From NCBI RefSeq assembly GCF_964355755.1, contig NC_092676.1:8285888-8349887 (forward strand): a stretch of DNA of 64,000 bases, in the 5' to 3' direction. Under the pieces are notes generated by a model. It made no database searches. It was not told the origin of the DNA and saw only the letters and a program-made list of their open reading frames with translations. The translations under genes and the position numbers were made by a program. How positions within the stretch are numbered: position 1 is the stretch's first letter; every line of letters starts with the position of its first letter. Source of the stretch: Antedon mediterranea. Taxonomy: Eukaryota; Animalia; Echinodermata. Shown here in pieces: positions 993-43,039 of the stretch.

Positions 993-1253
993 TTAAGTAT
1001 TTAATAATAATAATTAAATTTCTTTAAATGAAGACCAATTTTCAATTATTTTTATCTTTCAAAATTGAATAATTTATTGATAATTGTTAAATATTTTACT
1101 AATGCTAAGTGATTTTTAAAATATATACTGTATACTGTATGTTGATTAGATTATGAAATGATACAATGCATAATATGCATTGTTATCAATTATTTTATTA
1201 TCAATTTAAAAAAAAAAATTAAACAAAAAAATTGATGTGATCAAAATACTTAC

Positions 1254-1325
1254 AGTGTTGTCAGTGCTGTCAAACTATCAAATACATTGGCTGGCAATGT
1301 ACTTATTTGGTTATAGTGCAAACGC
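1254..1325 (-). CDS. 72-bp LRR exon RLHYNQISTLPANVFDSLTALTT(L), array 1
   Basis: Minus strand TTTTAAG|G CGT TTG CAC ... ACA CT|GTAAGT; open frame, phase 2/2. Confidence 0.8.
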
Positions 1326-2846
1326 CTTAAAAGTGAAAACAATGTACAGTAAAAATTACAATATGCAAGCTTTATACAACTTTGTTTTACTTTTAGCCAA
1401 TGAGACATTATCTACATAGTAAATGCTGATGAGTATACTTTAATTAGTATAAATAAACTATGTTAAAATAAGTAAAGTATTATTCTCATTAACACAATTT
1501 GTATAACAAATTCTAAATATTTGTTATTTTAATATATCTCTTTAAATCTCTTTAAATGAAGACCAATTTTCAATTATTTATATCTTAAAAAATTGCATAA
1601 TTTATTGATAATTGTTAAATATTTTACTAAAGGTTAGAGTCCAAATACCTTCAATTCAACAATGTACATTAAAAATTACAGTATTCAAGCTGTTCAGAAT
1701 CTCAACTTTTATTTTTCATACACATTTTGAATTATTTGTATAGTCTTTCAGTCAATGATAGGGACATTATCTACATAGTAAATGCTATTGAGTATACTTT
1801 AATTAAGCAAAAATAAACTATGTTAAAATAATTAGAATGTGTTATTGAACATAATTTGTATAACAAATAATAATGATAATGAATATAACCTAATCATAAA
1901 CATTTATTTTTCATATACATTTTGATTTTTTTTATAGTCTTTCAGGGACATTATCTAAATAGTAAATGCTGATGAGCTTACATTAATTAGGCAAAAATAA
2001 ACTGTTAAAATATGAAAAATGTTATTCTCATACACACAATTTCTTAATGTATTTAATAATTTAATAGTTAAATCTTTTTAAAGGAATGTTAAAATATTAA
2101 TAAAGTGTTATTCTCATGAACACCATTACTATAGCAAATTGTAAATATTTGTTACATATTAAAAAAAAGTATTTAATAATAATAATTAAATTTCTTTAAA
2201 TGAAGACCAATTTTCAATTATTTTTATCTTTCAAAATTGAATAATTTATTGATAATTGTTAAATATTTTACTAATGCTAAGTGATTTTTAAAATATATAC
2301 TGTATACTGTATGTTGATTACATTATGAAATGATACAATGCATATATTCATTGTTATCAATTATGTTATTATCAATTAAAAAAAAAAAATTAAACAAAGA
2401 AATTGATATGATCAAAATACTTACAGGGATATCAGTGCTGTCAAACTATCAAATACATAGTTTAGTTACGAGATAGGGACATTATATAAATAGTAAATGC
2501 TGATGATACTTTAATTAGGCAAAAATAAACTGTTAAATTAAGAAAATGTTATTCTCATTAATACAATTGTTTTAGCAAATTCTAAAAATGTGTTATCTTC
2601 TTTAATATATTAATAAAATAATAATTATATATCTTTAAATAATGACCAATTAACAATTAAAATCTTTAAAAAATGAATAATTAATATTGATGGTTAATAT
2701 TTTATTAAACCTAAGTTTTAAAAAAGTATATACTGTATGTATTGATCACATTATGAAATTATACAATTAGGAAGTAATATGAATTATTTTATTATGTATT
2801 TTTACAACAAATTAAACAAAGAAATTGATAAGAGCAAAATACTTAC

Positions 2847-2918
2847 AGATGTGTCAGTGCTGTCAATCTATCAAATACATTGGCTGGCAATGTTCTTATT
2901 TGGTTATTGTACAAATAC
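2847..2918 (-). CDS. 72-bp LRR exon YLYNNQIRTLPANVFDRLTALTH(L), array 1
   Basis: AG acceptor, GTAAGT donor, open frame, phase 2/2. Confidence 0.8.
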
Positions 2919-4009
2919 CTTAAAAGTGAAAACAATGTACAGTAAAAATTACAATATGCAAGCTGTATACAACTTTGTTTTACTTTTAGCCAATGAGACA
3001 TTATCTACATAGTAAATGCTGATGAGTATACTTTAATTAGTATAAATAAACTATGTTAAAATAAGTAAAGTATTATTCTCATTAACACAATTTGTATAAA
3101 AAATTCTAAATATTTGTTATTTTAATATATCTCTTTAAATCTCTTTAAATGAAGACCAATTTTCAATTATTTATATCTTAAAAAATTGCATAATTTATTG
3201 GTAATTGTTAAATATTTTACTAAAGATTAGAATCCAAATACCTTCAAAGTAAAAACAATGTACATTAAAAATTACACCATTCAAGCTGTTTAGAATCTCA
3301 ACTTTTATTTTCGATATAGATTTTTGAATTATTTGTATAGTCTTTGATAGGGACATTATCTACATAGTAAATGCTGATGAGCATACTTTAATTAAAGATA
3401 TATTTTCCCTCTGAAAAATATTCAGAGGGACAATTCAGATATTAATAATGAATAATTTATTTATAATGTTAAACACTTTACCAATGCCAGGTGGTTTTAA
3501 CATTTGTACTTTATATATTGATTAAATTATGAAATAACATTTTTAAAACAAATTAAACAAGGAAATTAATATGATAAAGATACATACAGGGATATCAGTG
3601 CTGTCGAACTATCAAATACATAGTTTAGTTAAGGGATAGGGACATTATATAAATAGTAAATGCTGATGATACTTTAATTAGGCAAAAATAAACTGTTAAA
3701 TTAAGAAAATGTTATTCTCATTAATACAATTGTTTTAGCAAATTCTAAAAATGTGTTATCTTCTTTAATATATTAATAAAATAATAATTATATATCTTTA
3801 AATAATGACCAATTAACAATTAAAATCTTTAAAAAATGAATAATTAATATTGATGGTTTATATTTCATTAAACCTAAGTTTTTAAAAAGTATATACTGTA
3901 TGTATTGATCACATTATGAAATTATACAATTAGGCAGTAATATGAATTATTTTATTATGTATTTTTACAAAAAATTAAACAAAGAAATTGATATGATCAA
4001 AATACTTAC

Positions 4010-4081
4010 AGCTTTGTCAGTGCTGTCAAACTATCAAATACATTGGCTGGCAATGTACTTATTTGGTTACCACCCAAACTC
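4010..4081 (-). CDS. 72-bp LRR exon SLGGNQISTLPANVFDSLTALTK(L), array 1
   Basis: AG acceptor, GTAAGT donor, open frame, phase 2/2. Confidence 0.8.
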
Positions 4082-5704
4082 CTTAAAAGTAAAAACAATG
4101 TACAGTAACAATTACATGCAAGCTGTATATAACTTTTATGTTTTACTTTTAGCCAATGAGACATTATCTACATAGTAAATGCTGATGAGTATACTTTAAT
4201 TAGTATAAATAAACTATGTTAAAATAAGTAAAGTATTATTCTCATTAACACAATTTGTATAACAAATTCTAAATATTTGTTATTTTAATATATCTCTTTA
4301 AATCTCTTTAAATGAAGACCAATTTTCAATTATTTATATCTTAAAAAATTGCATAATTTATTGATAATTGTTAAATATTTTACTAAAGGTGTTAGAGTCC
4401 AAATACCTTCAATTCAACAATGTTCATCAAAAATTACAGTATTCAAGCTGTTCAGAATCTCAACTTTTATTTTTCATACACATTTTGAATTATTTGTATA
4501 GTCTTTCAGTCAATGATAGGGACATTATCTACATAGTAAATGCTATTGAGTATACTTTATTAAGGCTAAAATAAACTGTTAAATTAAGAAAATGTTATTC
4601 TCATGGATGAACACAATTTGTATGACAAATTATTTGTTATCTTAATGTATTAATATAATAATTAAATCCAAATGAAGACCCAATATTATCAATAATATAT
4701 TTGTATATTGTATGTATTGGTCACATTATCTACATAGTAAATGCTATTGAGTATACTTTAATTAAGGCTAAAATAAACTATGTTAAAATAATTAGAATGT
4801 GTTATTGAACATAATTTGTATAACAAATAATAATGATAATGCATATAACCTAATCATAAACATTTATTTTTTATACACATTTTGATTTTTTTTATAGTCT
4901 TTCAGGGACACGATCTAACTAGTAAATGCTGATGAGCTTACATTAATTAGGCAAAAATAAACTGTTAAAATATGAAAAATGTTATTCTCATGAACACAAT
5001 TTCTTACTGTATTTAATAATTTAATATTTAAATCTTTTCAAATGAATGTTAAAATAATAAAGTGTTATTCTCATGAACACCATTTCTATAGCAAATTCTA
5101 ATATTTGTTTTCATATAATAATTATATTAATTAAATCTCTTTAATTAATGACCAATTAACACTTATTACATTATAAAATGATAAAATGCATAATGTTTAT
5201 TTTTATAAAAATATATTGTTATTTATTTTGAAAAAAATAATTAAACATAGAAATAAATAATTGCAAAATACTTTAGGCCTACAGCTAATGTCAGTGTTGT
5301 CAAACTATCAAATACCATGGGCTGGCAATGCACTTATTTGTTGATGTTCATAAAGGAATAACAGTGATATAGTGGTTGGGGTTAAGGTATAAAAAGTGTT
5401 AAAATAAGAAAGGGTCATGAGAAAATTGTAAATATTTGTTACATATTAAGTATTGAATAATAATACTTAAATTTCTTGAAATGGAGACCAATTTTCAATT
5501 ATTTTCATCTCTCAAAATTGAATAATTTATTGATAATTGTTAAATATTTTACTATATTATGCTAAAGTGATTTTTAAAATATAAACTGTATACTGTATGT
5601 TGATTACATTATGAAATGATACAATGATTAATATTCATTGTTTTAAATTATTTTATTTTCAACTTAAAACAAATTAAACAAAGAAATTATTATGAGCAAA
5701 ATAC

Positions 5705-5776
5705 AGTATTGTCAGTTTTGTCAATCTATCAAATACATTGGCTGGCAATGTTCTTATTTGGTTATTCCACAAAGAC
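5705..5776 (-). CDS. 72-bp LRR exon SLWNNQIRTLPANVFDRLTKLTI(L), array 1
   Basis: AG acceptor and open frame; donor weakened to GTATTT by a small deletion. Confidence 0.65.
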
Positions 5777-6170
5777 CTTAAAAGTAAAAACAATGTACAG
5801 TAACAATTACAATAATCAAGCTGTTTGATATGTCAACATTTATTTTTCATATACATTTTAATTTTTGTTATAGCCTTTCAATGACATTATCTACATAGTA
5901 AATGCTGATGAGCTTATAATATGAAAAATCTTGTACAATTTCTTTATAAAATCAAAATATTTGTTATCATCTTAATGTATTTAATAATGTAATATTTAAA
6001 TCTCTTTAAATGAATGTTAAAATAATAAAGTGTTATTCTCATGAACACCATTTCTATAGCAAATTGTAAATATTTTAATAATTATATTAATTAAATCTCT
6101 TTAATTAATGACCAATTAACACTTATTACATTATGAAATGATAAAATGCATAATGTTTATTTTTATTTAA

Positions 6171-8740: not shown

Positions 8741-9090
8741 TTTTTTTAAAAAAATGTTATGTACCTTTTTTAAATGTTATTATATTATTTATTATTGTTT
8801 TATTTCAATGAAACTTCGCACCTTCCTTAATTAACTATTGTTCTATTATTATGCAAAATTTTCATTAAAATCAACCCAATGGAACACTTTCAATTTAAGC
8901 ATAAAACATATGTTTTATGAAAATCATACATAATTTACGCCATCTTTTTAACCAATATACTACACAAAATGTTAAAATGTATCTATTTATTTGTCTCAAA
9001 ATAGAAAAACACCAAGGTAATGTAAATAAATATTGTTTCAGCTATCATTTTCTGTAAAAATAAAAAAAATGTTATTTTTCAGCCTTTTAA

Positions 9091-13460: not shown

Positions 13461-13946
13461 GTTTGGATTTGTGTATACATTTCATTTTAAATAGTATTCA
13501 TACATTTTAACGTTAAAAGGAGATTGGACGCCATATTGGATTCTGGCATGATGATGTCATTGTTATCGACTCAATTTATCAACTACTATGAGAAGTAGTT
13601 ATTAAAGTAAGCCTCGGCTAATTTTAATCATCATAACACAACTCCAAGTAACAAAACCCGTTAATTGGTTTCCCTATCCCCTATATATAGGTATTTGTGT
13701 GTGTTAATAGGCATTTGTGTGCGTTATATAGGCCAAAATTTAAAAGTGCCATACAAAATTTGGGGGATTTTTTTTCTGACATTGTATATGGTATACTCTA
13801 TCAGAAAAACCCAAAAAGAATTTTCCTATACTTTTTTCCCGCACCATGGGTGAGCCACTTGATGGTGATTCTTTGCTTTTTACTAAAACCGTTGTGTCGA
13901 TTTTGTTTTTCCTCGACAAAATAAATAAAATGAAAAGAATAAAAAT

Positions 13947-14037
13947 CTATACTTCTCTTGTTTGTTCATCTTTACATGATGGTTGACAGTAATCAATAAC
14001 GCCTACGAGGCAACACAGTCTTGAACAATCTGTGTCC
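13947..14037 (-). CDS. Terminal exon (L)DTDCSRLCCLVGVIDYCQPSCKDEQTREV*
   Basis: Polypyrimidine acceptor TTTTGCTCTCATAG, phase 2. The LxTDxxxxCC..CxP pattern resembles the hinge that follows the LRRs in type-C LGRs (RXFP/GRL101-like). Confidence 0.7.
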
Positions 14038-17000
14038 CTATGAGAGCAAAAGTAAGCACACAGCAAATGAATGTCAATGATTTTTAGTTTCATTTTAACA
14101 GTGTTCAAACTTGAAGAAAATTTACTATTGTTTGTGTACTTGTTTCTCTTAGATCATAAAGATGGTTTAGAATATTCAAAGATTTTGAAGGTACATTTAA
14201 TTGATAACTATTCTGAATATCAAAATATTATGTGTAGTGTTATATATAATATAAATACACAAAGAATAAGAACATACTATCATGAACTGTAACATTTAAT
14301 CATAATAATTACTTATTAATTTTAATATGTTTATTTTAAATTGAACATAATCTAACATTCAAATTATTAATGTAGATTATTTGACATGATTACTGATAAC
14401 AGCATGCTAAAAATAAAAACTGACAAATTCAATGACAAAATTGAAACTGGTTAAACAACAGTGCCAACATTGTTTTAAAAAAGGTTTTTAAACCTATTAA
14501 AATAGCTGAAAGTTTTTAATGCAAGTTGCCACTGACGTTTTAGACATAAATTGACAAATTATTATATGATAGAACGCCAATAAACAATACATGAATTGAT
14601 TTAATTAACGGATCAATCAAAAGTGTCATGAGGTGTACTACAGTTGAAAATTGACCTCCTGAATGCAGTTGTACGAATTAAATGAAATTCAAATTCTTTT
14701 AAGAATTTAAAAATATTGATTTTCCTTGAAATAATAATAAGAGTAACATTGTGTATGCACACCTGTCATATACTTACAAACGTGTTAAGTTTGTTAATTG
14801 TTCAAAAGTTTTATCTTCGTAATAAAGCAAGCTGTTCCCATATAAAAATCTAAATAATGACAATGATTAGCCATAGTAAATTTTAATTTTAAAAATATTA
14901 ACATTTCAAAATGAAGGGTACTATTACCATGAGTTTAGGTTGTACAGGATGTTAATAACCAAGAGGCTCTTGTACTATAGGATATCATCCTTGTGAAATA
15001 ATGGGTGAAGCCAGAAGGAAAATTGGAATGAATATAATCAATGACAAAAGTACATTGTTGAATGTGTTTTCATTTATAAACTATTTAAACGTACCATTCT
15101 AGCGTTGCAATAAATTAAGTTAAGAATCTTGATGAAAACCTAATACATGTTTACACTTGTTTGCAAAGTTTCTCGTTCAATTCTAGTTGCATTTACATTT
15201 TAGAGTAAATAACTAGCTTTGTAATCCTAATGACAACCTGCAGTTTAAATTATTCCTTAAATAGCTACTTCATGGCATGAGTTATTTAAATTATAAATCA
15301 TATATTAATATTATGAACTTACAAATATGAAAGAGATGAAGCAAAAGAAGAAAATGCACCTGGTTCTATGGTAGTTATAGCATTGTTATCTAAATGCCTG
15401 TTGGGAGATAACCGATATGTATATGGTTTGTTTGTTAATCCTACAAAATTACTATATTATTATTATTCAATTGATTTTAAACAAATCTGTGAAAACAGTG
15501 ATTTACTAATAGACTGGTTATACTACAACAAACAGTGACGTCATTGGATATAAATTAAACAGTACACATTGGATCATATAAGATAAAAAATAACTAAATT
15601 TGTAAAATCAATCAATAAGAATAATTATTATTTAAGCCAAATATTGAATTCTTTCACACCACAACTATTTTAACCAGAAATGTATAATTTTTAACTTACC
15701 ATCAATATTACTATCTAATTTGTTTAATGTCATAATCAAAGTATTGAATTAAACCTTTGTATGATTCCACTGTAAAACTACGCCAATTAAAACATGAAGT
15801 TATTGATGGCGTTATTGTTATAATCTTACAAAAATATTGGTGCTGGTTCAATATTTTATTAAGTTATTTTCTTTATATTTATTTATAATCAATCAATCTA
15901 TAATAATTTATATTAGATGACTACCAAATTATTGGTGCTTGTTCGATATTGTATTAAGTTATTTTCTTTATATTATTTATAATCAATCAATCTATAATAA
16001 TTTATATTAGATGACTACATTTATTTTTTAATTTAACTGTTATTTGTATATGTTGTAAATTCAACAATGCTTTCCTTCTTGCAATCAAGAAAGTTTAATG
16101 AGTAAAATGTATACAACAATGTACAATAGAAAGTAGCTATTTGATGTCAAATTTACTTTTTATAGCAAATTCTATTTATGTTTGTTATTATTATCATCAT
16201 TATGTTTTTAATATTATTATTAAAGATATATTGTCCCTCTGAAAAATATTCAGAGGGACAATTCAGATATTAATAATAAATAATTGATTGATAATGTTAA
16301 ACATTTTACTACTGCCAAGTGGTTTTAAAATGTATACTGTATATATTGATTACATTATGAAATGATAACATTTTAAAAACAAATTAAAGAAGGAAATTAA
16401 TATGAGAAAGATACTTATTACAGGGATGTCAGTGCTGTCAAACTATCAAATACATTGGCTGGCAATGTACTTATTGGGTTTATTGCCCAAATGTCAAGCT
16501 GTTTGATAGGTCAACTTTTATTTTTCATTTTTTAATTAGTTTATAGTCTTTAGTAAAGGGATAGGGACATTATCTAAATAGTAAATGCTATTGAGTATAC
16601 TTTAATTAGACAAAAATAAACTGTTAAAAAAAGAAAATGTTATTCTCATTAATACAATTTTTTTAGCAAATTCTAAATATTTGTTATCTTCTTTAATGTA
16701 TTAATAAAATAATAATTATATATCTTTAAATAATGACCAATTAACAATTAAAATATTTAAAAAATGAATAATTAATATTGATGGTTAATATTTTATTAAA
16801 CCTAAGTTTTAAAAAAGTATATACTGTATGTATTGATCACATTATGAAATTATACAATTAGGAAGTAATATGAATTATTTTATTATGTATTTTTACAACA
16901 AATTAAACAAAGAAATTGTTATGAGCAAAATACTTACAGCCATGTCAGTGCTGTCAATCTATCAAATACATTGGCTGGCAATGTACTTATTTTGTTACCA

Positions 17001-20000
17001 CCCAAATTCCTTAAAAGTAAAAACAATGTACAGTAACAATTACATGCAAGCTGTATATAACTTTTATGTTTTACTTTCAGCCAATGAGACATTATCTACA
17101 TAGTAAATGCTGATGAGTATACTTTAATTAGTATAAATTATGTTAAAATAAGTAAAGTATTATTCTCATTAACACAATTTGTATAACAAATTCTAAATAT
17201 TTGTTATTTTAAAAAACTCTTTAAACCTCTTTAAATGAAGACAAATTTTCAATTATTTATATCTTAAAAAATTGAATAATTTATTGATAATTGTTAAATA
17301 TTTTACTAAAGGTTAGAATCCAAATACCTTCAAAGTAAAAACAATGTACATTAAAAATTACAGTATTCAAGCTGTTTAGAATCTCAACTTTTATTTTTCA
17401 TACACATTTTGAATTATTTGTATAGTCTTTCAGTCAATGATAGAGACATTATCTACATAGTAAATGCTGATGAGCATACTTTAATTAAAGATATATTGTC
17501 CCTCTGAAAAATATTCAGAGGAACAATTCAGATATTAATAATGAATAATTTATTTATAATGTTAAACATTTTACTAATGCCAGGTGGTTTTAACATTTGT
17601 ACTTTATATATTGATTAAATTATGAAATGATAACATTTTAAAAACAAATTAAACAAGGAAATTGATATGATCAAAATACTTACAGCGATATCAGTGCTGT
17701 CAAACTATCAAATACATAGTTTAGTTAAGAGATAGGGACATTATATAAATAGTAAATGCTGATGATACTTTAATTAGGCAAAAATAAACTGTTAAATTAA
17801 GAAAATGTTATTCTCATTAATACAATTGTTTTAGCAAATTCAAAAAATTTGTTATCTTCTTTAATATATTAATAAAATTATATATCTTTAAATAATGACC
17901 AATTAACAATTAAAATCTTTAAAAAATGAATAATTTATATTGATGGTTAATATTTTATTAAACCTAAGTTTTAAAAAAGTATATACTGTATGTATTGATC
18001 ACATTATGAAATTATACAATTAGGAAGTAATATGAATTATTTTATTATGTATTTTTACAAAAAATTAAACAAAGAAATTGATAAGAGCAAAATACTTACA
18101 GATGTGTCAGTGCTGTCAAACTATCAAATACATTGGCTGGTAATGTACTTATTTGGTTACCACCCAAACTCCTTAAAAGTAAAAACAATGTACAGTAACA
18201 ATTACAATATGCAAGCTGTATATAACTTTTATGTTTTACTTTTAGCCAATGAGACATTATCTACATAGTAAATGCTGATGAGTATACTTTAATTAGTATA
18301 AATAAACTATGTTAAAATAAGTAAAGTATTATTCTCATTAACACAATTTGTTTAACAAATTCTAAATATTTGTTATTTTAATAAATCTCTTTAAATCTCT
18401 TTAAATGAAGACCAATTTTCAATTATTTATATCTTAAAAAATTGAATAATTTATTGATAATTGTTAAATATTTTACTAAAGGTTAGAGTCCAAATACCTT
18501 CAATTTAACAATGTACATCAAAAATTACAGTATTCAAGCTGTTCAGAATCTCAACTTTTATTTTTCATACACATTTTGAATTATTTGTATAGTCTTTCAG
18601 TCAATGATAGGGACATTATCTACATAGTAAATGCTATTGAGTATACTTTAATTAAGGCTAAAATAAACTGTTAAAATAAGAAAGTGTTATTCTCATGAAT
18701 GAACTCAATTTGTATGACAAATTATTTGTTATCTTAATGTATTTAATATAATAATTAAATCCCTTTAAATGAAGACCCAATATTATCAATAATATATTTG
18801 TATATTGTATGTATTGATCACATTATCTACATAGTAAATGCTATTGAGTATACTTTAATTAAGGCTAAACTATGTTAAAATAATTAGAATGTGTTATTGA
18901 ACATAATTTGTATAACAAATAATAATGACAATGCATATAACCTAATCATAAACATTTATTTTTCATATACATTTTGATTTTTTTTATAGTCTTTCAGGGA
19001 CACTATCTAAATAGTAAATGCTGATGAGCTTACATTTGTTAGGCAAAAATAAACTGTTACAATTTGAAAAATGTTATTCTCATGAACACAATTTCTTAAT
19101 GTATTTAATAATTTAATAGTTAAATCTTTTTAAATGAATATTAAAATAATAAAGTGTTATTCTCATGAACACCATTTCTATAGCAAATTCTAAATATTTG
19201 TTTTCATATAATAATTATATTAATTAAAACTCTTTAATTAATGACCAATTAACACTTATTACATTATGAAATGATAAAATGCATAATGTTCATTTTTATA
19301 AATTATAGTTTTATTTATTTTGAAAAAAAATTAAACATAGAAATAAATAATTGCAAAATACTTAGGCCTACAGCTTTGTCAGTGTTGAAAAACTATCAAA
19401 TACCATGGGCTGGCAATGCACTTTTTTTTATGTTCATACAGGAATAACAGTGATATAGTGGTTGGGGTTAAGGTATAGAAATTGGTAAAAAAAGAAAGGG
19501 TCATAAGCAAATTGTAAATATTTGTTACATATTAAGTATTTAATAATAATTATTAAATTTCTTTAAATGAAGACCAATTTTCAATTATTTTTATCTTTCA
19601 AAATTGAATAATTTATTGATAATTGTTAAATATTTTACTAATGCTAAGTGATTTTTTAAATATATACTGTATACTGTATATTGATTACATTATGAAATGA
19701 TACAATGCATAATATGCATTGTTATAAATTATTTTATTATCAATTTAAAAAAAAAAATTAAACAAAGAAATTGATATGATCAAAATACTTACAGTCTTGA
19801 CAGTGCTGTCAAACTATCAAATACATTGGCTGGCAATGTACTTATTTGGTTATAGTTCAAATACCTTCAAAGTTAAAACAATGTACAGTAAAAATTACAA
19901 TATGCAAGCTGTATACAACTTTGTTTTACTTTTAGCCAATGAGACATTATCTACATAGTAAATGCTGATGAGAATACTTTAATTAGTATAAACTAGATGG

Positions 20001-23000
20001 TACGCTCGCTTCGCTCGCGTACCATCTAGGTCGTGCCCACAGATGGTTCTCGAATACACAGTAATTTCAGAGTAACAAAACTGGCGATTTCAAATGTACG
20101 TACCGCAGGACTATATACATTGTCGTTTACAGAAACGAATAAATAGACACGATGATTTATGTAGTCAACTAAAATTAGCAACCTGGGAATTACTTCCGAA
20201 GGAGAAACTTATCACAAAATGAGTCCAAGTTTTTGATTTGGACTCATTTAAAGAAACCCAATTTGTGTTTTGTATGTAACATTAGGGTTGAGGGATAGGA
20301 AAGCGAGGTACAAAGAGGAACAATTTTTAAATATATTCTTTATCCACTCAGTAACGAAATATTTTTTTCATGTTTTATAGGCCTATAAATAATATACCTC
20401 TAAATACAGTAAAACATTTGCGATTTAATACTTTTTTTATTTTATTTATTTATTTATTTCTTTTAAATATTCATTGTACACTAATTTTCCCCGTGTATGG
20501 CAAGAGATTCCTAATTATATTAGAGAACATTCTTTATTTAGTTTAGTTAAAACTGTCACTGTCATAATCGATTGAAATATTAAAGTACCATGTCACGATA
20601 CACCACTACGACGTTTATATTTGGTAATTATTAATTAATACAAACGTTGAGAAAGAACTGTCAGTATAAAGTTTATTTGTATATAATAATGTGTTTATAT
20701 ATCTAACAGTAGAGCCTATCCACAATATCGCAAGTTTATTCTGAAAGGGCCCATATATTTACCTACCGTATGTGTTAAACCAAGGGCTCATAAATTTACC
20801 TACAGTACTTGTGTTAAACCAAACTCTGGCAGACTGAGAGATTGGGATGTTTCATTCATCGCAAATCAATAGATTTGTATAATCGTATATTAAATCTATC
20901 AAAATAGTATTTTTTAAAGAAAATCGGCCTGTCTTCAACATTATGATGGTGTACTCTAGCTGTTCAACCGGTTTTCAGCTATTAAAAACAATTATCGTAG
21001 GAGGAGATAGGAAAATGCGAAGCCTCCTCGCATTTTTGTGGCGGGTATTTTTCAAGACGGACATCCATTATACAGTGTATACCACGGTCGGAAAACACCC
21101 CTATTTGGGGCAAATCTTGGAACCTAAATTCGTTTTAACCGTCAATAACTTATTATCTAACTTAATTTAATTAGTAAACAGGGTTACATCAGGTGGTTAA
21201 AATCAGTACCGAGAGTACGAACCAACTTTATATACCATCGAGTAAAAATTCTAGAAGTAAGGCGCGATTTACCGAATTTTGCCCTTACGTAAATTTATAT
21301 ATAGATTTGTTACATATTAAGTATTGAATAATAATAATTAAATTTCTTGAAATGGAGACGAATTTTCAATTATTTTCATCTCTCAAAATTGAATAATTTA
21401 TTGATAATTGTTAAATATTTTACTAATGCTAAAGTGATTTTTAAAATATATACTGTATACTGTATGTTGATTACATTATGAAATGATACAATGATTAATG
21501 TTCATTTTGTTATAAATTATTTTATTATCAATTTAAAAAGAAACTAAACAAAGAAATTGATATGATCAAAATACTTACAGGGATATCAGTTTTGTCAAAC
21601 TATCAAATACATTGGCTGGTAATGTACTTATTTGGTTATAGTGCAAACGCCTTAAAAGTGAAAACAATGTACAGTAAAAATTACAATATGCAAGCTGTAT
21701 ACAACTTTGTTTTACTTTCAGCCAATGAGACATTATCTACATAGTAAATGCTGATGAGTATACTTTAATTAGTATAAATAAACTATGTTAAAACAAGTAA
21801 AGTATTATTCTCATTAACACAATTTGTATAACAAATTCTAAATGTTTGTTATTTTAATATATCTCTTTAAATCTCTTTAAATGAAGACCAATTTTCAATT
21901 ATTTATATCTTAAAAAATTGAATAATTTATTGATAATTGTTAAATATTTTACTAAAGGTTACAGTCTAAATACTTTCAAAGTAAAAACAATGTACATTAA
22001 TCTAATCTGTACAATCTAAACTTTTATTTTTCATGAACATTTTGAATTATTTGTATAGTCTTTCAGTCAATGATAGGGACATTATCTACATAGTAAATGC
22101 TGATGAGCATACTTCAATTAAATAAACTGTTAAAATAAGAAAGTGTTATTCTCATGAATGAACACAATTTGTATGACAAATTATTTGTTATCTTAATGTA
22201 TTTAATTATAATAATTAAATTCCTTTAAATGAAGACCCATTATCAATAATATATTTGTATATTGTATGTATTGATCACATTATCTACATAGTAAATGCTA
22301 TTGAGTATACTTTAATTAAGCAAAAATAAACTATGTTAAAATAATTAGAATGTGTTATTGAACACAATTTGTGTAACAAATAATAATGATTACATTTTGA
22401 TTTTTTTTATAGTCTTTCAGGGACACTATCTAAATAGTAAATGCTGATGAGCTTACATTAATTAGGCAAAACTAAACTGTTAAAATTTGAAAAATGTTAT
22501 TCTCATGAACACAATTTCTTACTGTATTTAATAATTTAATAGTTAAATCTTTTTAAATGAATGTTAAAATAATAAAGTGTTATTCTCATGAACACCATTT
22601 CTATAGCAAATTCTAATATTTGTTTTCATATAATAATTATATTAATTAAAACTCTTTAATTAATGACCAGTTAACAGTTATTACATTATGAAATGATAAA
22701 ATGCATAATGTTCATTTTTATAAATTATATTTTTATTTATTTTGAAAAAAAATTAAACATAGAAATAAATAATTGCAAAATAATTTAGGCCTACAGCTTT
22801 GTCAGTGTTGTCAAACTATCAAATACCATAAGCTGGCAATGCACTTATTTTTTTATGGTCATACAGGAATAACAGTGATATAGTGGTTGGGGTTAAGGTA
22901 TAGAAAGTGTTAAAATAAGAAAGGGTCATAAGCAAATTGTAAATATTTGTTACATATTAAGTATTTAATAATAATAATAATTAAATTTCTTTAAATGAAG

Positions 23001-25273
23001 ACCAATTTTCAATTATTTTTATCTTTCAAAATTGAATAATTTATTTATAATTGTTAAATATTTTACTAATGCTAAGTGATTTTTAAAATATATACTGTAT
23101 ACTGTATGTTGATTACATTATGAAATCATACAATGCATAATATTCATTGTTATAAATTATTTTATTATCAATTTTAAAAACAAATTAGACAAAGAAATTG
23201 ATATAATCAAAATACTTACAGGTATGTCAGTGCTGTCAAACTATCAAATACATAGTTTAGTTAAGAGATAGGGACATTATATAAATAGTAAATGCTGATG
23301 ATACTTTAATTAGGCAAAAATAAACTGTTAAATTAAGAAAATGTTATTCTCATTAATACAATTGTTTTAGCAAATTTAAAAAATTTGTTATCTTCTTTAA
23401 TATATTAATAAAATTATATATCTTTAAATAATGACCAATTAACAATTAAAATCTTTAAAAAATGAATAATTAATATTGATTGGTTAATATTTTATTAAAC
23501 CTAAGTTTTAAAAAAGTATATACTGTATGTATTGATCACATTATGAAATTATACAATTAGGCAGTAATATGAATTATTTTATTATGTATTTTTACAAAAA
23601 ATTAAACAAAGAAATTGATATGACAAAGATACTTACAGTTCTTTCAGTGCTGTCAATCTATCAAATACATTGGCTGGTAATGTACTTATTTTGTTAGAGC
23701 CCAAATGCCTTAAAAGTAAAAACAATGTACAGTAACAATTACAATATTCAAGCTGTTTGATATGTCAACATTTATTTTTCATATACATTTTAATTTTTGT
23801 TATAGTCTTTCAAGGACATGATCTACATAGTAAATGCTGATGAGCTTAAAATATAAAAAATGTTATACAATTTCTTTATAAAATCTAAATATTTGTTATC
23901 ATCTTAATGTATTTAATAATTTAATATTTAAATCTCTTTAAATGAATGTTAAAATAATAAAGTGTTATTCTCATGAACACCATATAGCAAATTCTAAATA
24001 TTTGTTTTCATTTTAACATATTTAATAATTATATTAATTAAATCTCTTTAATTAATGACCAATTAACACTTATTACATTATGAAATGATAAAATGCATAA
24101 TGTTCAGTGTTAAATCTCTTTAAATGAATGTTAAAATAATAAAGTGTTATTCTCATGAACACCATATAGCAAATTCTAAATATTTGTTTTCATTTTAACA
24201 TATTTAATAATTATATTAATTAAATCTCTTTAATTAATGACCAATTAACACTTATTACATTATGAAATGATAAAATGCATATTGTTCAGTGTTGTCAAAC
24301 TACCAAATACATGGGGTGACAATGCACTTATTTATTTATGTTCTAGTCATACAGGTATAGAGTGATATAGTGGTTGGGGTTAGGGTATAGAAAGTGACCC
24401 CACAAAATGAAATTATTTCTGATAACAATAAGTACTAAATTTCAATTGTGCATTATATTTTAATCAATGGGTGCCAATAATAATAATTATATGTATACTC
24501 ATTATTACATATTTTTAAATATATATATTTTAAATTCCATGTTATAGTAGACATACAATGAAATAATTACACTGATAATAACCATATACTTACAATTGTG
24601 TTATTGGAACATGATCATTATACTCGTTGATAGTTGTGATGTTATTAATACTCCATGGAGGACGACATCCCACTTCGTGACGGTCAGCTAGCTGAGTACA
24701 AGTACAATAGGCTGGACATTCTGCTTGTTTAAAGAAAAAGACAACTCAGAGATACGTTTAGGAAAGGGAAAGGGGGGAAATGTATGTATTGTTACAAACG
24801 CAATCTTCCGTCAGTCAGACATGTCTAGCTGTGATAGGCAATTAAACATCAGCTAATAAATTAAATTCACAATCACAAAAACATACAAGTAAATACTGTA
24901 TAGTACTGTAGAATTAAAATTAAATCAGATGTTAAAAGTGAACAAGAGATTTAATTGCCTTTGAATCTTAGTAACAGTAAAGTTTGTAGAGGGTCTACTG
25001 TTAAAAAAGTATAAAAACACAGTATCAAATACCAAACAGCCAATTAATGAAAATAACACACTCGTTGGTATAATCATTATACTGTATTATAGTTATCAAT
25101 GCATAAAGAAAATTGTTAAAAAATGAAGTAATCATATCGGGAAGGGAATTAGAGCTGCTACTATAATACTCACTGACATTGCCACCATCACTATCACTAG
25201 AACAACGAGAACAAGGTAATACAGCCAATATAATAATACAATACAGTAGTATGATTCCTTTCAAGATGAACAT
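13947..25273 (-). CDS. Predicted secreted variable-LRR protein, 274 aa, 10 exons: 25273-25174, 24720-24594, 23708-23637, 21650-21579, 19864-19793, 18171-18100, 17009-16938, 15397-15323, 14849-14778, 14037-13947
   Basis: All introns are GT-AG with compatible phases, giving 825 nt from ATG to TAG without an internal stop. Order: signal peptide MFILKGIILLYCIIILAVLPC, LRRNT CPAYCTC..EVGC, 7 LRRs, cap LDTDCSRLCCL..YCQP. Confidence 0.8.
14778..14849 (-). CDS. 72-bp LRR exon FLYGNSLLYYEDKTFEQLTNLTR(L)
   Basis: TTTAG acceptor, GTAAGT donor, phase 2/2. Confidence 0.8.
15323..15397 (-). CDS. 75-bp LRR exon HLDNNAITTIEPGAFSSFASSLSY(L)
   Basis: CAACAG acceptor, GTAAGT donor, phase 2/2. Confidence 0.85.
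16938..17009 (-). CDS. 72-bp LRR exon NLGGNKISTLPANVFDRLTALTW(L)
   Basis: AG acceptor, GTAAGT donor, open frame, phase 2/2. Confidence 0.85.
18100..18171 (-). CDS. 72-bp LRR exon SLGGNQISTLPANVFDSLTALTH(L)
   Basis: AG acceptor, GTAAGT donor, open frame, phase 2/2. Confidence 0.85.
19793..19864 (-). CDS. 72-bp LRR exon YLNYNQISTLPANVFDSLTALSR(L)
   Basis: AG acceptor, GTAAGT donor, open frame, phase 2/2. Confidence 0.85.
19993..21305 (-). mobile_element. Non-autonomous Helitron
   Basis: Minus strand starts A|TCTATATATA and ends CTAG|T, with the hairpin CTAGATGGTACGC...GCGTACCATCTAG at the 3' end; no TSD. Confidence 0.85.
21579..21650 (-). CDS. 72-bp LRR exon RLHYNQISTLPANVFDSLTKLIS(L)
   Basis: AG acceptor, GTAAGT donor, open frame, phase 2/2. 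Confidence 0.85.
23637..23708 (-). CDS. 72-bp LRR exon HLGSNKISTLPANVFDRLTALKE(L)
   Basis: AG acceptor, GTAAGT donor, open frame, phase 2/2. Confidence 0.85.
24594..24720 (-). CDS. LRRNT exon (K)CPAYCTCTQLADRHEVGCRPPWSINNITTINEYNDHVPITQ(L)
   Basis: Polypyrimidine tract plus CAG acceptor (phase 1), GTAAGT donor (phase 2), CPxxCxC..VxC motif. Confidence 0.85.
25174..25273 (-). CDS. First coding exon, signal peptide MFILKGIILLYCIIILAVLPCSRCSSDSDGGNV
   Basis: AAGATG start, hydrophobic core, and a phase-1 donor CA|GTGAGT that matches the LRRNT exon. Confidence 0.8.
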
Positions 25274-25699: not shown

Positions 25700-25828
25700 A
25701 TATGTTATTTACCTTTTTAAACGTTATATACCTTTTTAAATGTTATATACCTTTTTAAACGTTACCGTATATACCTTTTTAAATTTTATATACCTTTTTA
25801 AATGTTATATACCTTTTTAAATGTTATA
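25700..25828. repeat. 19-bp minisatellite AATGTTATATACCTTTTTA (left part)
   Basis: About 6 tandem units; the repeat resumes at 32640. Confidence 0.9.
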
Positions 25829-29200: not shown

Positions 29201-30162
29201 TAAAATATAAAAATTGTTGAGAATTGTTATGAACTATCTTGTAAATTTTGATCAAACATTAATAGTTGTAGTAAAGTGGGGACCTGTCCTGTTTTGCATT
29301 CTGACCCCTTTTGACCTCAAATGACCTATTTACAAGGTCAGATTTTTTGGGAGGTCTTTGTATCTCTTTACACAAAATAGATTTAAAAATTTATAAAAAC
29401 CATTGACTCAATTATTTCCAAGTTTAACATTATTTTCCATCAACTAAATATTTCAATGCAAAATACTGTTTTTCTGGCAATTAATTGAAATAAACCTGGC
29501 AACACATTCTCCTATTTTATCTAAACTATTCGTATGACTCTAGTAGCATTATGACAAGCCATATATACATTTTATTATTGAATTAGCCATATTTAAATTG
29601 TGTTTCATGTGTTTTGTTTGTTGATATTTTCCTGGCAACACAAAACCTATGTACGAAATTTACCCCAGTGTTTTTTTCGTGATTATTGTTGACAAACCTA
29701 TTGACTATCAAATTAAAAAACCTCATTGATTTAAAAACACCACTTTGGAAGTTATAGGTACGTTTATGAGGTATACTTTTATAAAAAAAATATTTTTTAA
29801 AAACACCCCTTTTTAAAATAATGGTATCAACCAAACTCCATTTTGTAATTTATTTTTTTTCTACATTAAATGGAACTCAATACATGTTGTTTACACTGCT
29901 ATAAACAAAAACTGTATACTGTAAGTATTTTTGGTTAAAATAGTATACAAGTTTGTACTTTTTCACTATAGAAAATCTGTGAAAAATGGCAAAAACATCA
30001 AAATTTGGATAATTGACCGTTGTCATGGCAACGGAGGCTAAAAATTAAAATGAATGTTGTAGATATGCTTTTTATTGAAATGTCTATTCATGGTAAAAAT
30101 TTGAGAGAAATCCATTTTTTTACATCTGCCACCAAATCTTTGATTTTTACAGACAATGGCTC
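26294..30162 (+). mobile_element. Kolobok-like non-autonomous DNA transposon, full length (3.87 kb)
   Basis: TTAA|GAGCCATTGTCTGTAA ... TTACAGACAATGGCTC|TTAA with long imperfect subterminal inverted repeats; no transposase ORF. Confidence 0.8.
27942..28472. mobile_element. Tigger/pogo-like MITE nested in the Kolobok-like element
   Basis: Right end CTTACGGGAGGTTCAACTG|TA with repeated TAAGCGGCCAC motifs; left end partly deleted. Confidence 0.6.
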
Positions 30163-30952
30163 TTAATATCTGAGCCAAACATTCAGGAACATGTCCAACA
30201 TCAGCACCATCCAATGAACATACCTTGATTGCATTTCTTGTTTTATTTGACGGTGAATCATAGGACTGTTTTTTTGCTTTTTATATTGTTTTTTAATTGA
30301 GTATATTAAACATAATTTCATGGTTGAAAAAATGTCTCAAAAGTCATATTATTGTAGTAGAAATTCACAAAATTTACAGCATTCATTTCGAAAAGAAGAC
30401 CTCTCTACAGTTTGTTTGTTTGTTTTGTTTATTAATTCTTTTCCACACACATCAATATATATTTTACTTAAATATTCAGATTTAAAAAAAGTATGATGAG
30501 TGTGGAAGGTGACCAAATAAGTTGAAAACTTTAGGATATGGTCACCTTCGTTAATCAGTATTTAGTTTGGATACCCAGACAAGCACACGGGAGAAAAATT
30601 ATCACTTAAACAATAATTACAGATAAATATACGAAAATGATAAAACAAATGAAGCGTTCAAGTTAGAAACCATTAATTGTAACAGGAGTCGATCAGATTA
30701 CAGACCGACCGAGTTAAGTTGAACGCATCAAAAAATAATATTTAAAAACAAAATAAATAAATAAAATTAAGAAATATAGTAAAAAATTATAGAATATATT
30801 ATGTAAATCCAAATATAAATAATTTACAATTCATTTTAAACTCTTTAAATCCAATACAAAAAATATAAAAAGAAGGAAAGAGGAGACTACTCACCATACA
30901 CTGAGACCAAGAGGCTTTTATAATGATATTTAAATGATGAAAGAGAATGTTT

Positions 30953-32639: not shown

Positions 32640-33107
32640 AAACCTTTTTAAATGTTATATACCTTTTTAAATGTTATATACCTTTTTAAATGTTATATAC
32701 CTTTTTAAATGTTATATACCTTTTTAAATGTTATATACCTTTTTAAATGTTATATACCGTACCTTTTAAAACGTTATATACCTTTTCAAATATTATATAC
32801 CTTTTTAAATGTTATATACCTTTTTAAATGTTATATACCTTTTTAAATGTTATATACCGTACCTTTTAAAACGTTATATACCTTTTTAAATGTTATATAC
32901 CGTACCTTTTAAAACGTTATATACCTTTTTAAATGTTATATACCTTTTTAAATGTTATATACCTTTTTAAATGTTATATACCTTTTTAAACGTTATATAC
33001 CTTTTAAAACGTTATATACCTTTTTAAATGTTATATACCTTTTTAAATGTTATATACCGTACCTTTTAAAACGTTATATACCTTTTCAAATATTATATAC
33101 CTTTTAA
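32640..33107. repeat. 19-bp minisatellite AATGTTATATACCTTTTTA (right part)
   Basis: More than 20 tandem units, some with a TACCG expansion. Confidence 0.95.
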
Positions 33108-34440: not shown

Positions 34441-35433
34441 ATCCTTACGGTTGACGTTTATAAGAAAAATGATAACTGTTTACTTCTTTTTTTTTTTTCA
34501 TTTCTGACTTGTTGCTTAATGTTGATTAGTTTTTTGATGTTTTTTATAATTGTTTGTACTCTACTCTTTTTTTTTTCCATTTTTCTCCTCAACGCCATTA
34601 ACTTACAACATGGCAAAGCTAAGTTTGGGGGTTGTATTGCGTTAAGGATTATCTTAACTGTGATTGAATGAATATTGGTCCCCTTTATGAATCGTTTGAC
34701 GGTGGATGATCTTAATTTTGGATGAATCTTTGGTCCTCTTTATGTTTTGTATGGTGTTGGGTCTTAACTTTGATTGGATGAATCTTTGATCACTTCCTTT
34801 CAATCTTTTATAGACTTATAGTGACGTTCAACCTGTGTACTTTCTCTGAACAATGATTTTTTTTTTCTGCTGTTAATATTTAACTATGCGATTTTGCTTA
34901 ATACACACTTTTAAGTGTTACGCATTGTATAACATCATAATATAATACATAAAAATTGTATTTCTTCTGTTTTGTCTTACTATCGGATGTTCGTTTTATT
35001 TGGACCTCATTTTAAGCATTGCTTACAGTGCGGTGGGGTTTTCCCATTACGTAATCCTAATGTTTTATCAGCAACGTTATAGCACTAGGGTGTTCTTTTT
35101 TTTGTTTTTGGTAGAAATATGTTTTATGAATTTCTTACAAGATTAAACTAGCGTTGGTAAATGATGAACTGGATCTAGTTTAGGTGCGATAATGATGTCA
35201 GTTTAGGGTGACCCTTACCAAAGCTGAATGCCTTTGCTTACTAGCATTCGAATGCTACTCCTGGAATGCTATTATTGGCATTCGAAGGGCTATACTTAGC
35301 ATTCGAATACTAGTGGTATATAAGTATTCAATGATTGAATTTAGCCTTCGAATGCTTCTTAGCATTCGCTAAGCCTTCGCTAAGCCTTCCAGGGAGCCGA
35401 ATTATTTAAATGAGCTTAAGCATGCGAATGATA

Positions 35434-42033: not shown

Positions 42034-42105
42034 AGCCATATCAGTTCTATCAAACTATCAATTACATTGGCTGGCAATACTTATTTTGTTCCAGCCCAAT
42101 ATACC
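42034..42105 (-). pseudogene. Isolated degenerate copy of the 72-bp LRR exon with its intron flank (from 41915)
   Basis: LPANVIDSLIELIW(L)|GTAAGT retained; 2-nt deletion and extra bases in the 5' half. Confidence 0.8.
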
Positions 42106-43039
42106 CTAAAAAGAAAATGAAGCTAATGGTAGCTTGACAGTCAAGATGTGTGTACGTTTAACTTTTACTTATGTCTGAAGTTGTTTATATAAATAAATGT
42201 GTATATAATTAGATTAAGTAAATTATATAATTCTCTTTTACTTAAAGAACTGCCTTGATATTTTTTCATATTCATTGAATCAGTTTAAGAAGTTTTAAGT
42301 TTATCATAATGTTCAAATGCTAGGTGTACCTTATTATTTAGGCATTTGTTCTTGTATTTGTATCCGTTTTGTTTTGTATGTTAACCCTCCTGTTATTGGC
42401 AAATTTTTTGTTGCTGTTGGTTGGGTTTTGAAATAAAGTAAATAAATAAATATAATAAATAATATAAAATATATAAAAACCAAATATGTGAATTAGATAA
42501 TTAGATATTCAAGAAACTAAAGTGATAATAATATTTATTAATCCCTACCACAAATAATTGCTGATACATAATAAAATAAATATTAATGCTTATACATCAA
42601 TTCATTTCCTGTTACAATTGGTCAAAATATATATTCCGAGTTTAATTTTCAGACCAATATCTTTGTTGACAGACCAAAGGGTTACAGAGATACTGTAGGG
42701 CAATTTGGGTGCCATTTTTAAATGTGGCTGTGAAAATGTGTTACATTTTTGTTATTTGTGTAAAATCAAGTTAAGTTTCACTTTGGGCAAGAGTTTTGCC
42801 TAAGGATACAAGTAATTCGGCGAGAGTTGGATTCAAACTCACAATCTCACATCCTGACATTAATGGATCAGACATGTCTAAAATACAAGAAATATTAATA
42901 TTTTCTAGACCTGGAAAGTTTAATTTCTGAAATAGAAAAGTGGACAAAAACTAGATTTTTGTGTACATTCCTAAGTTTTGATTTGATTTTGTTTTTTTTG
43001 CTCTTGATTTTAGTTCTTTTATTTATTTTTATCTTGAAG

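What the first reader, a model, noticed from the sequence alone, without database searches (positions are those of the whole stretch)
13947..25273. Hidden VLR-like gene: a secreted LRR protein built from tandem 72-bp variable cassette exons
Seen: the apparent AT-rich satellite is, on the minus strand, a series of 72-bp exons with AG and GTAAGT boundaries. They join in frame into signal peptide + LRRNT + 5 near-identical 24-aa LRRs (HLGSNK.., RLHYNQ.., YLNYNQ.., SLGGNQ.., NLGGNK..ISTLPANVFDxLTxLxxL) + 2 divergent LRRs + a Cys cap, 274 aa in total. The exons are too short for the ORF track. Known: jawless-vertebrate VLRs have this overall layout and a similar module (LxxNQLxSLPxGVFDxLTxLxxL), and one-exon-per-LRR shuffling has been described for brown-algal ROCO proteins. 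Inference: a convergent, diversified recognition protein (immunity or allorecognition) in an invertebrate.
Basis: partly seen in the sequence, partly recalled or inferred. Interest (0 to 1): 0.92.

Follow-up and report, generated by a model that had tools for sequence, protein, structure and literature searches.

The report
Unannotated cassette-exon LRR gene, VLR-like repeats
An AT-rich, probably echinoderm genome carries a gene model absent from the protein collection searched, with one 72-base exon per leucine-rich repeat; it is predicted to give a small secreted binding protein, amino-acid changes cluster on the likely ligand-binding face, and expression and any immune role are untested.

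Summary
On the minus strand, ten exons (25273-13947) with AG acceptors and GT(A/G)AGT donors join in frame into 825 nt / 274 aa. The parts are a hydrophobic N-terminus, a four-Cys N-cap, five near-identical 24-residue LRRs each on its own 72-nt exon, two divergent LRRs and a short five-Cys tail.

The "satellite" is 27 variable repeat units, all on the minus strand. Nine keep an intact cassette exon: five in the gene and four in a second array (1254-5776) that has no 5' exons in the window. The other units hold decayed exon relics or none.

Between a 3.5-kb duplicate pair, cassette exons differ about three times more than introns. Nearly all of these differences change amino acids, and they sit in the five xxLxLxxN concave-face codons.

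A profile of the cassettes ranks lamprey/hagfish VLRs and VLR-derived scaffolds far above every other solved LRR protein.

It is not a VLR. The germline gene is complete and spliceosomal, and no LRRCT or stalk was found. The closest architectural analogue is the brown-algal ROCO 72-nt LRR exon array.

The protein collection holds a neighbouring gene but no protein with these exons. Expression, fold and function remain untested.

The parts
25174..25273 (-). Exon 1 (100 nt): ATG and a hydrophobic N-terminus, a predicted signal peptide; donor GTGAGT
   Evidence: 11-residue Kyte-Doolittle means of 2.2-3.35 over residues 1-14, falling below 0 after residue 19. No signal-peptide predictor was run.
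24594..24720 (-). Exon 2 (127 nt): four-Cys N-cap (C-x3-C-x-C-x10-C), one NIT sequon and the start of the first LRR
   Evidence: The Cys spacing resembles the LRRNT disulfide pattern quoted for amphioxus Bf66946. No Pfam, PDB or phmmer match for this exon alone.
23637..23708 (-). Cassette exon A3 (72 nt, one 24-residue LRR)
   Evidence: Pfam LRR_8 E 0.0031 for this exon alone
21579..21650 (-). Cassette exon A4
19793..19864 (-). Cassette exon A5
18100..18171 (-). Cassette exon A6
   Evidence: LRR_8 E 0.0055
16938..17009 (-). Cassette exon A7
15323..15397 (-). Exon 8 (75 nt): divergent 25-residue LRR, unique in the window
   Evidence: LRR_8 E 0.0028
14778..14849 (-). Exon 9 (72 nt): divergent LRR with an NLT sequon, unique in the window
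   Evidence: no Pfam match alone
13947..14037 (-). Exon 10 (91 nt): 29-residue tail with five Cys, stop TAG; not a recognisable LRRCT
   Evidence: no Pfam or PDB match; no LRRCT-like open frame further downstream to 8800; nearest AATAAA/ATTAAA at 13628
16411..16491 (-). Decayed cassette after A7: nearly full length, but with one extra base, no AG acceptor and donor GTAATA
23208..23253 (-). Decayed cassette in intron 3 (3' half with donor). Similar relics lie at 22792-22855 and 17676-17717; 5' stubs lie near 21990, 18500 and 17340
19998..21306 (.). About 1.3-kb high-copy insertion inside intron 4
   Evidence: The homology between units breaks at these points. Summed depth is hundreds of times that of neighbouring bins in all four runs, and loose ends fall at 19998 and 21306/21307.
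993..6166 (-). Array B: 12 repeat units with four intact 72-nt cassettes (5776-5705 with a damaged donor GTATTT; 4081-4010; 2918-2847; 1325-1254). No copy of exons 1, 2, 8, 9 or 10 in the window.
   Evidence: B 5912-2461 aligns to A 19972-16549 at 92.9% over 3486 columns
42036..42110 (-). Orphan cassette unit with AG and GTAAGT borders but an in-frame stop

Best explanation
This is a ten-exon minus-strand gene model in which five near-identical 72-nt exons each encode one 24-residue leucine-rich repeat, and it likely encodes a small secreted LRR-only binding protein whose concave face is inferred to be under diversifying selection. Shown: exon borders, frame and repeat register; a locus built from 27 tandem units, of which 9 keep an intact cassette exon and the rest hold relics or none; a second array without 5' exons that is a 93%-identical duplicate of part of the first; and cassette exons that differ about three times more than their introns, almost only by amino-acid changes in the x positions of xxLxLxxN. 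Inferred: the product enters the secretory pathway (hydrophobic N-terminus, Cys caps, two N-glycosylation sequons) and folds as a seven-repeat LRR arc like the VLR-type modules it resembles. Also inferred: it binds a variable ligand on its concave sheet. All cassette exons and exons 8-9 start and end in the same codon phase, so duplication, loss, exchange or skipping of any of them would keep the frame. This gives a germline route, and possibly a splicing route, to variants. An immune or self/non-self role is the most likely use but is a guess from analogy.
For: Gene model. Selection for an intact frame: 9 of the 27 units keep AG, 72 open nt and (for 8 of them) GTAAGT. Neighbouring units of the same age have lost half the exon, the frame or the splice sites. 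Scaffold conservation: for old unit pairs (A3 against the other A cassettes and B2-B4) flanks differ by 21-31% but exons by 12.5-16.7%, and 14 of 23 codon columns are invariant. Diversification: in the 3.5-kb A/B duplicate, exons carry 25/216 substitutions and introns 132/3174 (Fisher p 1.2e-5). For the three positional pairs, pS is 0.048 (intron rate 0.042) and pN is 0.142 (Fisher against intron, p 7e-7). In those pairs 18 of 45 nt changed in the five concave codons against 7 of 162 elsewhere (p 8e-9). In the youngest unit group (A6, A7, B2, B3) flanks differ by 1.6-3.1% and exons by 4.2-15.3%. Pooled over the 36 pairs, pN/pS is 2.43 in the ten end codons and 0.56 in the middle. LRR identity: LRR_8 hits for single exons; generic LRR clusters in the Atlas. 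In the PDB profile search, all 43 rows ranked above the first ordinary natural protein are VLR-type or designed chains.
Against: The N-cap and the C-tail match nothing in Pfam, PDB or 1.84 billion representative proteins, so the ends of the model rest on splice signals, frame and Cys pattern alone. A seven-repeat LRR arc without a recognisable C-cap is unusual. The source genome has annotated proteins in the collection, yet no protein there carries exon 2 or the cassette; this could mean the annotators had no transcript support. Two thirds of the units are already dead, so the locus is eroding. Exchange (gene conversion) between cassettes is visible: B1 and B3 share N4 and R8, and A7 shares GG with A6. 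This inflates pairwise pN for positional pairs, and pooled pairs are not independent. No whole-product domain scan, signal-peptide prediction or structure prediction was run, because the tools take only unspliced window translations.
Confidence: 0.6

Rival explanations
1. A dead or dying locus: a tandem repeat that once carried LRR exons, where the ten-exon model is an accidental survivor that is no longer transcribed or translated.
For: 18 of 27 units have lost their exon. Array B lacks 5' exons in the window, and its first cassette has a damaged donor. A LINE-like RT and a 1.3-kb repeat have inserted in or beside the arrays. No protein with these exons is in the collection.
Against: Neutral decay cannot make exons diverge three times faster than introns while synonymous sites match the intron rate. 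It also cannot keep 14 of 23 codons invariant while old flanks reach 21-35% divergence. All ten exons keep frame and splice signals, whereas neighbouring relics show how fast unselected copies break.
Confidence: 0.15
2. An ordinary extracellular-matrix or adhesion LRR protein (small leucine-rich proteoglycan-like) with no recognition role; the exon-limited differences come from neutral patchy gene conversion among cassettes.
For: The size, the N-terminal C-x3-C-x-C-x10-C cluster and the few repeats recall small LRR matrix proteins (recalled, not tested). Shared patches between cassettes show conversion. Chondroadherin and Slit appear among weak PDB rows.
Against: Conversion alone homogenises. 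It does not explain why diversity persists only at the five concave codons while flanks of the same units are 97-98% identical. The matrix LRR proteins in the PDB score at E of 0.2 or worse, against 1e-22 for natural VLRs.
Confidence: 0.17
3. A true VLR-type system: array B and the intronic relics are donor cassettes that are copied somatically into the gene.
For: VLR-like module. A cassette array without 5' exons lies 8 kb downstream. Mosaic sharing of variable patches between cassettes.
Against: The germline gene is already complete and each cassette keeps its own splice sites and homologous intron, which is what tandem duplication leaves. VLR germline genes are incomplete and are assembled by a cytidine-deaminase-dependent, gene-conversion-like process (passages of PMC13428168). 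No somatic data exist here.
Confidence: 0.03

Closest known systems
Agnathan variable lymphocyte receptors (VLRA/B/C) and VLR-derived repebodies
   Same: 24-residue module with the same spine (xLxxNQ-xx-LP-xx-VFD-x-LT-x-L-xx), about 12-13 of 23 residues identical to the repeats printed. Variable residues fall at the x positions of xxLxLxxN. The product is small and LRR-only with a Cys-rich N-cap. Natural VLR chains score E 3e-22 to 1e-6, while the best ordinary protein (SLITRK1) scores 4.4e-4.
   Different: The germline gene is complete and the repeats are joined by RNA splicing, not by somatic cassette copying. No connecting peptide, LRRCT or Thr/Pro stalk was found. The module list for VLRs is taken from passages of PMC4731796. 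The host is an AT-rich, probably echinoderm genome.
Brown-algal ROCO (LRR-ROC-COR) genes with shuffled LRR exons
   Same: Each LRR sits on its own 72-nt exon with the same phase at both ends. Inactivated LRR exons lie inside the introns. Positive selection is reported on concave-face residues, and alternative splicing of cassette exons has been reported (passages of PMC3341825; PMC11378527).
   Different: Those are cytoplasmic GTPase receptors of an alga. Here there is a predicted signal peptide, Cys caps and no other domain. There the codons run over nt 3-71 of the exon, here over nt 2-70, so the intron cuts the repeat at another point. That argues for independent origin.
Amphioxus VLR-like LRR-only proteins (Bf66946)
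   Same: Germline-encoded small LRR-only protein of an invertebrate deuterostome, with an N-cap of similar Cys spacing (21/25/27/39 there, 35/39/41/52 here).
   Different: Bf66946 has a 51-residue LRRCT with two disulfides and only two 24-residue LRRVs. No exon-per-repeat array is described in the passages read.
Crab Eriocheir sinensis VLR2 isoforms
   Same: An invertebrate LRR protein called VLR, whose diversity is ascribed to alternative splicing that changes LRR number (abstract and passages of PMC10045472).
   Different: The longest form has an LRRCT and a transmembrane domain. Its isoforms were shown by cDNA; no transcript data exist here.
Exonic modularity of LRR domains in human NLRs (NLRP3)
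   Same: LRR units coincide with exons, which permits in-frame exon skipping (abstract of PMC6642158).
   Different: A different LRR class in cytoplasmic sensors, with no tandem near-identical cassettes or dead exons in the introns.

Membership tests
Extracellular 'typical' LRR proteins (Pfam LRR_8 type) | Tandem 24-residue LxxLxLxxNxL repeats | tested here: met
   Seven repeats of 24-25 residues in register. Single exons hit LRR_8 at E 0.0028-0.0055, below the gathering score as expected for one repeat. The profile of 9 cassettes hits solved LRR proteins down to 1.2e-32.
Extracellular 'typical' LRR proteins (Pfam LRR_8 type) | Cys-rich N-terminal cap (LRRNT) | tested here: inconclusive
   The C-x3-C-x-C-x10-C spacing fits, but exon 2 alone gives no Pfam or PDB match.
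Agnathan VLR | LRRV module consensus | tested here: met
   of the 43 rows above SLITRK1, 31 are named VLR, repebody or internalin-VLR fusion. The other 12 are clones or designed chains whose names the table does not explain.
Agnathan VLR | LRRNT-LRR1-LRRV-LRRVe-CP-LRRCT-stalk layout | tested here: not met
   The C-terminal 29 residues have no LRRCT match. No LRRCT-like frame lies downstream. The model stops 29 residues after the last LRR.
Agnathan VLR | Incomplete germline gene completed by somatic copying of flanking cassettes | tested here: not met
   The window holds a complete open model with canonical splice sites at all nine introns. The somatic state cannot be tested with these tools.
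Agnathan VLR | Cytidine-deaminase (CDA) dependent assembly in lymphocyte-like cells | not testable with these tools
   No whole genome is held and there are no cell data.
Brown-algal shuffled-exon ROCO receptors | One LRR per 72-nt exon with matching phases, and inactivated exons in introns | tested here: met
   compared with passages.
Brown-algal shuffled-exon ROCO receptors | ROC-COR GTPase domains | tested here: not met
   No such domain in the model nor in 97 of the 134 window open frames of 62 aa or more scanned (the most relevant others were scanned).
Amphioxus-type 'VLR-like' LRR-only proteins | LRRNT plus LRRCT, LRR-only, LRRV consensus (criteria in PMC4731796) | tested here: not met
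   The LRR-only and consensus criteria are met and LRRNT is inconclusive. LRRCT was not found.
Small leucine-rich proteoglycans | Class-specific N-terminal Cys cluster and C-terminal ear repeat with two Cys | not tested
   This resemblance is recalled only. Chondroadherin scores E 0.25.

The most novel reading that the evidence does not exclude
An echinoderm keeps a germline cassette system for a VLR-like binding surface. One-repeat exons are born, die and swap patches between a complete gene and a neighbouring array without 5' exons. Because every cassette exon starts and ends in the same codon phase, they could be combined by splicing into many receptor variants. This would be an invertebrate counterpart of the lamprey VLR cassette locus, and perhaps the kind of precursor from which it arose.
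Probability: 0.12. Interest if true: 0.85.

Novelty: new variant of a known kind. Interest (0 to 1): 0.55.

Why it matters
If the gene is expressed, it would extend the exon-per-repeat, shuffle-and-select way of evolving LRR binding surfaces, described for brown-algal ROCO genes, to a secreted animal LRR protein. Four literature searches found no description of such a locus in an echinoderm. The cassette is also the closest match to VLR variable modules that I could find outside jawless vertebrates with the solved-structure library. That makes the locus a concrete place to ask whether VLR-type modules and cassette arrays predate vertebrates or arose twice. It also shows that annotation can miss genes made only of 72-100-nt exons inside repeat arrays. 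If it is not expressed, it is a tidy example of exon birth and death in a decaying tandem array.

Tried and rejected
So no whole-protein Pfam scan, signal-peptide prediction or structure prediction was run, and only single exons by window reference were used.

Genome: no whole genome is held, so family size and other loci could not be counted.

RNA: no RNA holder is listed. The second, on 13600-24500 with X8, X1, X5 and X9, showed no exon-exon joint among the 15 joints printed (214 were not shown). The run guessed to be RNA (X8) also covers intron (for example 17556-17831 and 14038-14084). Nothing can therefore be said on expression. The depths there are sums over repeats and were not used as copy numbers.

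Homologues:
- Exon 2 peptide: no candidate in the word-indexed search.
- Exon 2 peptide by phmmer against 1.84 billion representatives: one hit, P0002, a repetitive protein matching 13 residues four times. I rejected it as spurious.
- Cassette alignment: too short for the word-indexed search.
- Natural 54-aa open frame around cassette A6: 10 candidates, none scoring.
- ESM Atlas: only generic LRR clusters.

Other searches that gave nothing useful:
- A 20-nt cassette core in metagenome contigs gave two GC-rich, unrelated chance matches.
- Earlier findings of this scan: nothing.
- Rfam: nothing.
- A second copy of exons 1, 2, 8, 9 or 10 in the window: none.
- An LRRCT-like exon downstream of exon 9: none.
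- A cassette-like fragment at 58670-58641 (E 0.0068 in the window's six frames) has no unit context and was dropped as chance.
- The neighbouring LRR protein P0001 is not a close relative of the model (blastp E 0.18).

Full report
**Observation.** The ten exons are 25273-25174, 24720-24594, 23708-23637, 21650-21579, 19864-19793, 18171-18100, 17009-16938, 15397-15323, 14849-14778 and 14037-13947.
- All nine acceptors are AG. Eight donors are GTAAGT and one is GTGAGT.
- The pieces sum to 825 nt, open from ATG to TAG, giving 274 aa.
- Exon GC is 35.9% and intron GC 23.4%.
- The pattern AG + 72 open nt + GT[AG]AGT occurs 9 times on the minus strand, always in the same frame offset, and never on the plus strand. 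Thirty Markov-resampled windows gave a mean of 0.83 and a maximum of 4.

**Predicted product, by part**.
- A hydrophobic N-terminus, read as a predicted signal peptide (hydropathy only).
- A four-Cys cluster C-x3-C-x-C-x10-C, close to the LRRNT disulfide spacing quoted for amphioxus Bf66946.
- Five near-identical 24-residue LRRs.
- One 25-residue and one 24-residue divergent LRR.
- A 29-residue tail with five Cys.
- Two N-x-S/T sequons.

Single LRR exons hit Pfam LRR_8 weakly (E 0.003-0.006). Exons 2, 9 and 10 hit nothing. Exon 2 and the tail also find nothing among solved structures. No LRRCT-like frame lies downstream of exon 9. Secretion and fold are therefore inferred from the parts.

**Anatomy of the repeat.** A 12-nt intron motif marks 27 units, all on the minus strand and 146-976 nt apart. 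Fifteen lie in the gene (array A) and twelve at 993-6166 (array B).
- Nine units hold an intact cassette exon: five in A and four in B, the first B cassette having a damaged donor.
- The other units hold 3' halves with a donor, 5' stubs, a frameshifted near-complete copy at 16491-16411, or nothing.
- The recently copied unit is a block of one live exon plus one to three dead ones. B 5912-2461 aligns to A 19972-16549 at 92.9% over 3486 columns.
- Array B has no copy of exons 1, 2, 8, 9 or 10 in the window.
- Upstream of B lie a 196-nt tandem repeat and a LINE-like reverse transcriptase. At its lower end, homology to array A stops at 993, about 1 kb before the window edge.
- A 1.3-kb high-copy element sits in intron 4.
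- One orphan dead cassette lies at 42110-42036.

**Selection.** Across the nine cassettes, 14 of 23 whole codons are invariant, and the split codon at every junction is CT|G, Leu. Variation sits at codons 22, 23, 1, 3 and 4, with two states each at codons 6, 8, 17 and 20. Read across the junction, the five main variable codons are the x positions of xxLxLxxN, the concave sheet of an LRR arc.

| Comparison | Exons | Introns or flanks | Test |
|---|---|---|---|
| 3.5-kb A/B duplicate, substitutions | 25/216 | 132/3174 | Fisher p 1.2e-5 |
| Three positional pairs (A5/B1, A6/B2, A7/B3) | pS 0.048, pN 0.142 | 0.042 | pN against intron, p 7e-7 |
| Youngest units (A6, A7, B2, B3), divergence | 4.2-15.3% | 1.6-3.1% | none run |
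| Oldest comparisons (A3 against the other A cassettes and B2-B4), divergence | 12.5-16.7% | 21-31% | none run |

In the three positional pairs, 18 of 45 nt changed in the five concave codons against 7 of 162 elsewhere (p 8e-9). The scaffold is therefore held while the concave positions are pushed apart.

Caveats: the pooled pairs are not independent. Patches are clearly exchanged between cassettes (for example, B1 and B3 share N4 and R8), which inflates pN for positional pairs. Conversion alone would homogenise, however. It does not explain diversity that persists only at these codons between units whose flanks are 97-98% identical. The excess over the intron rate also cannot come from relaxed constraint in a dead array B.

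**What it resembles.** A profile of the nine cassettes was searched against all PDB chains.
- The 43 best rows run from E 1.2e-32 to 5e-5.
- Of these, 31 are named VLR, repebody or internalin-VLR fusion. From recollection, the other 12 are VLR clones or designed repeat proteins; the table does not say.
- The first ordinary natural protein is SLITRK1 at 4.4e-4. Slit2, chondroadherin, SHOC-2 and the Nogo receptor follow at 0.2-0.55.
- In the printed alignments, 12-13 of 23 residues are identical to the VLR-type repeat.
- Part of the gap arises because VLR-type chains repeat a near-consensus module several times, so scores add up. Single-repeat scores are of similar size (15-20 bits against 22.6 for SLITRK1's one stretch).

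**Why it is not a VLR.** By the module list and mechanism quoted, a VLR has an LRRCT, a connecting peptide and a stalk. Its germline gene is incomplete and is finished by somatic cassette copying. Here the germline model is complete, every cassette has its own splice sites, and no LRRCT or stalk was found.

The nearest architecture in print is the brown-algal ROCO family: 72-nt single-LRR exons, inactivated LRR exons inside introns, positive selection on the concave face and alternative splicing of cassettes (passages read). Those proteins are cytoplasmic GTPases, and their codon register in the exon differs (nt 3-71 there, nt 2-70 here). The likeness is therefore one of design, not descent. 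Amphioxus VLR-like proteins, crab VLR2 isoforms and exonic modularity in human NLRs are further partial parallels.

**Source and annotation.**
- No genome is held for the window.
- A single-exon LRR-transmembrane gene at 52053-53201 is present letter for letter in the protein collection, from NCBI/UniRef, on a 30.56-Mb contig.
- Its only other relative at E 1e-5 or better is a 59%-identical protein named trophoblast glycoprotein-like from the crinoid Anneissia japonica. The window therefore probably comes from an echinoderm, perhaps a crinoid.
- No protein of 73-2000 aa shares even three 5-residue words with exon 2, and none of 96-2000 aa scores with the cassette frame. As far as these word-based searches go, the gene and any close paralogue are missing from annotated proteomes.
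- Four literature searches found no description of such a locus in echinoderms. Only listings, abstracts and the passages named above were read.

**Verdict.** The locus is best read as a real, fast-evolving, germline-encoded secreted LRR-only gene built from cassette exons, with a VLR-like repeat and a ROCO-like gene architecture (confidence 0.6). Its expression, fold and function are open. An immune or self/non-self role is an analogy. A VLR-type somatic mechanism is unlikely (0.03).

Noticed in passing
window 51999-53204 (+); protein from 52053: Single-exon 383-aa LRR protein with a signal-like start, LRR_8 (E 3.7e-12) and a C-terminal hydrophobic segment. It is present in the protein collection. 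Its nearest named relative (59%) is 'trophoblast glycoprotein-like' of the crinoid Anneissia japonica. It is not a close relative of the cassette gene (blastp E 0.18).
   Followed up: partly
window 7125-8756 (-): LINE-like reverse transcriptase (RVT_1, E 5.3e-33) with its frame broken by a stop at 8105/8106. It lies between the gene's 3' end and array B.
   Followed up: partly
window 19998-21306: About 1.3-kb insertion in intron 4 with a palindromic end. It has by far the highest summed depth in all four sequencing runs laid, so it is a very abundant repeat of this genome and its relatives. Two of its open frames had no Pfam match.
   Followed up: partly
window 42036-42110 (-): Orphan cassette unit 17 kb upstream of the gene, with AG and GTAAGT borders and unit-like downstream intron sequence but an in-frame stop. 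It suggests that units have been dispersed.
   Followed up: partly
window 23928-24293: 182-nt tandem duplication, two copies, 99% identical, inside intron 2. This is a very recent local duplication.
   Followed up: no
window 30041-30280 (-): Open frame with a weak HIRAN-domain match (E 2e-4, below Pfam's cut-off). It is possibly an exon of a neighbouring gene upstream of the LRR gene.
   Followed up: no
window 32642-33109 and 25706-25826: A 19-nt tandem repeat (about 23 copies) whose unit recurs at 25.7 kb. Other short arrays lie at 35426-35604 (33 nt) and 63781-63896 (27 nt).
   Followed up: no
window 13600-24500, runs X1 and X5: Contigs of the same and of a related organism join unit sequences in other orders (for example 23788 to 17407 in X5, and 16914 to 22502 in X1). 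This hints at further arrays or structural variants of this repeat elsewhere.
   Followed up: no
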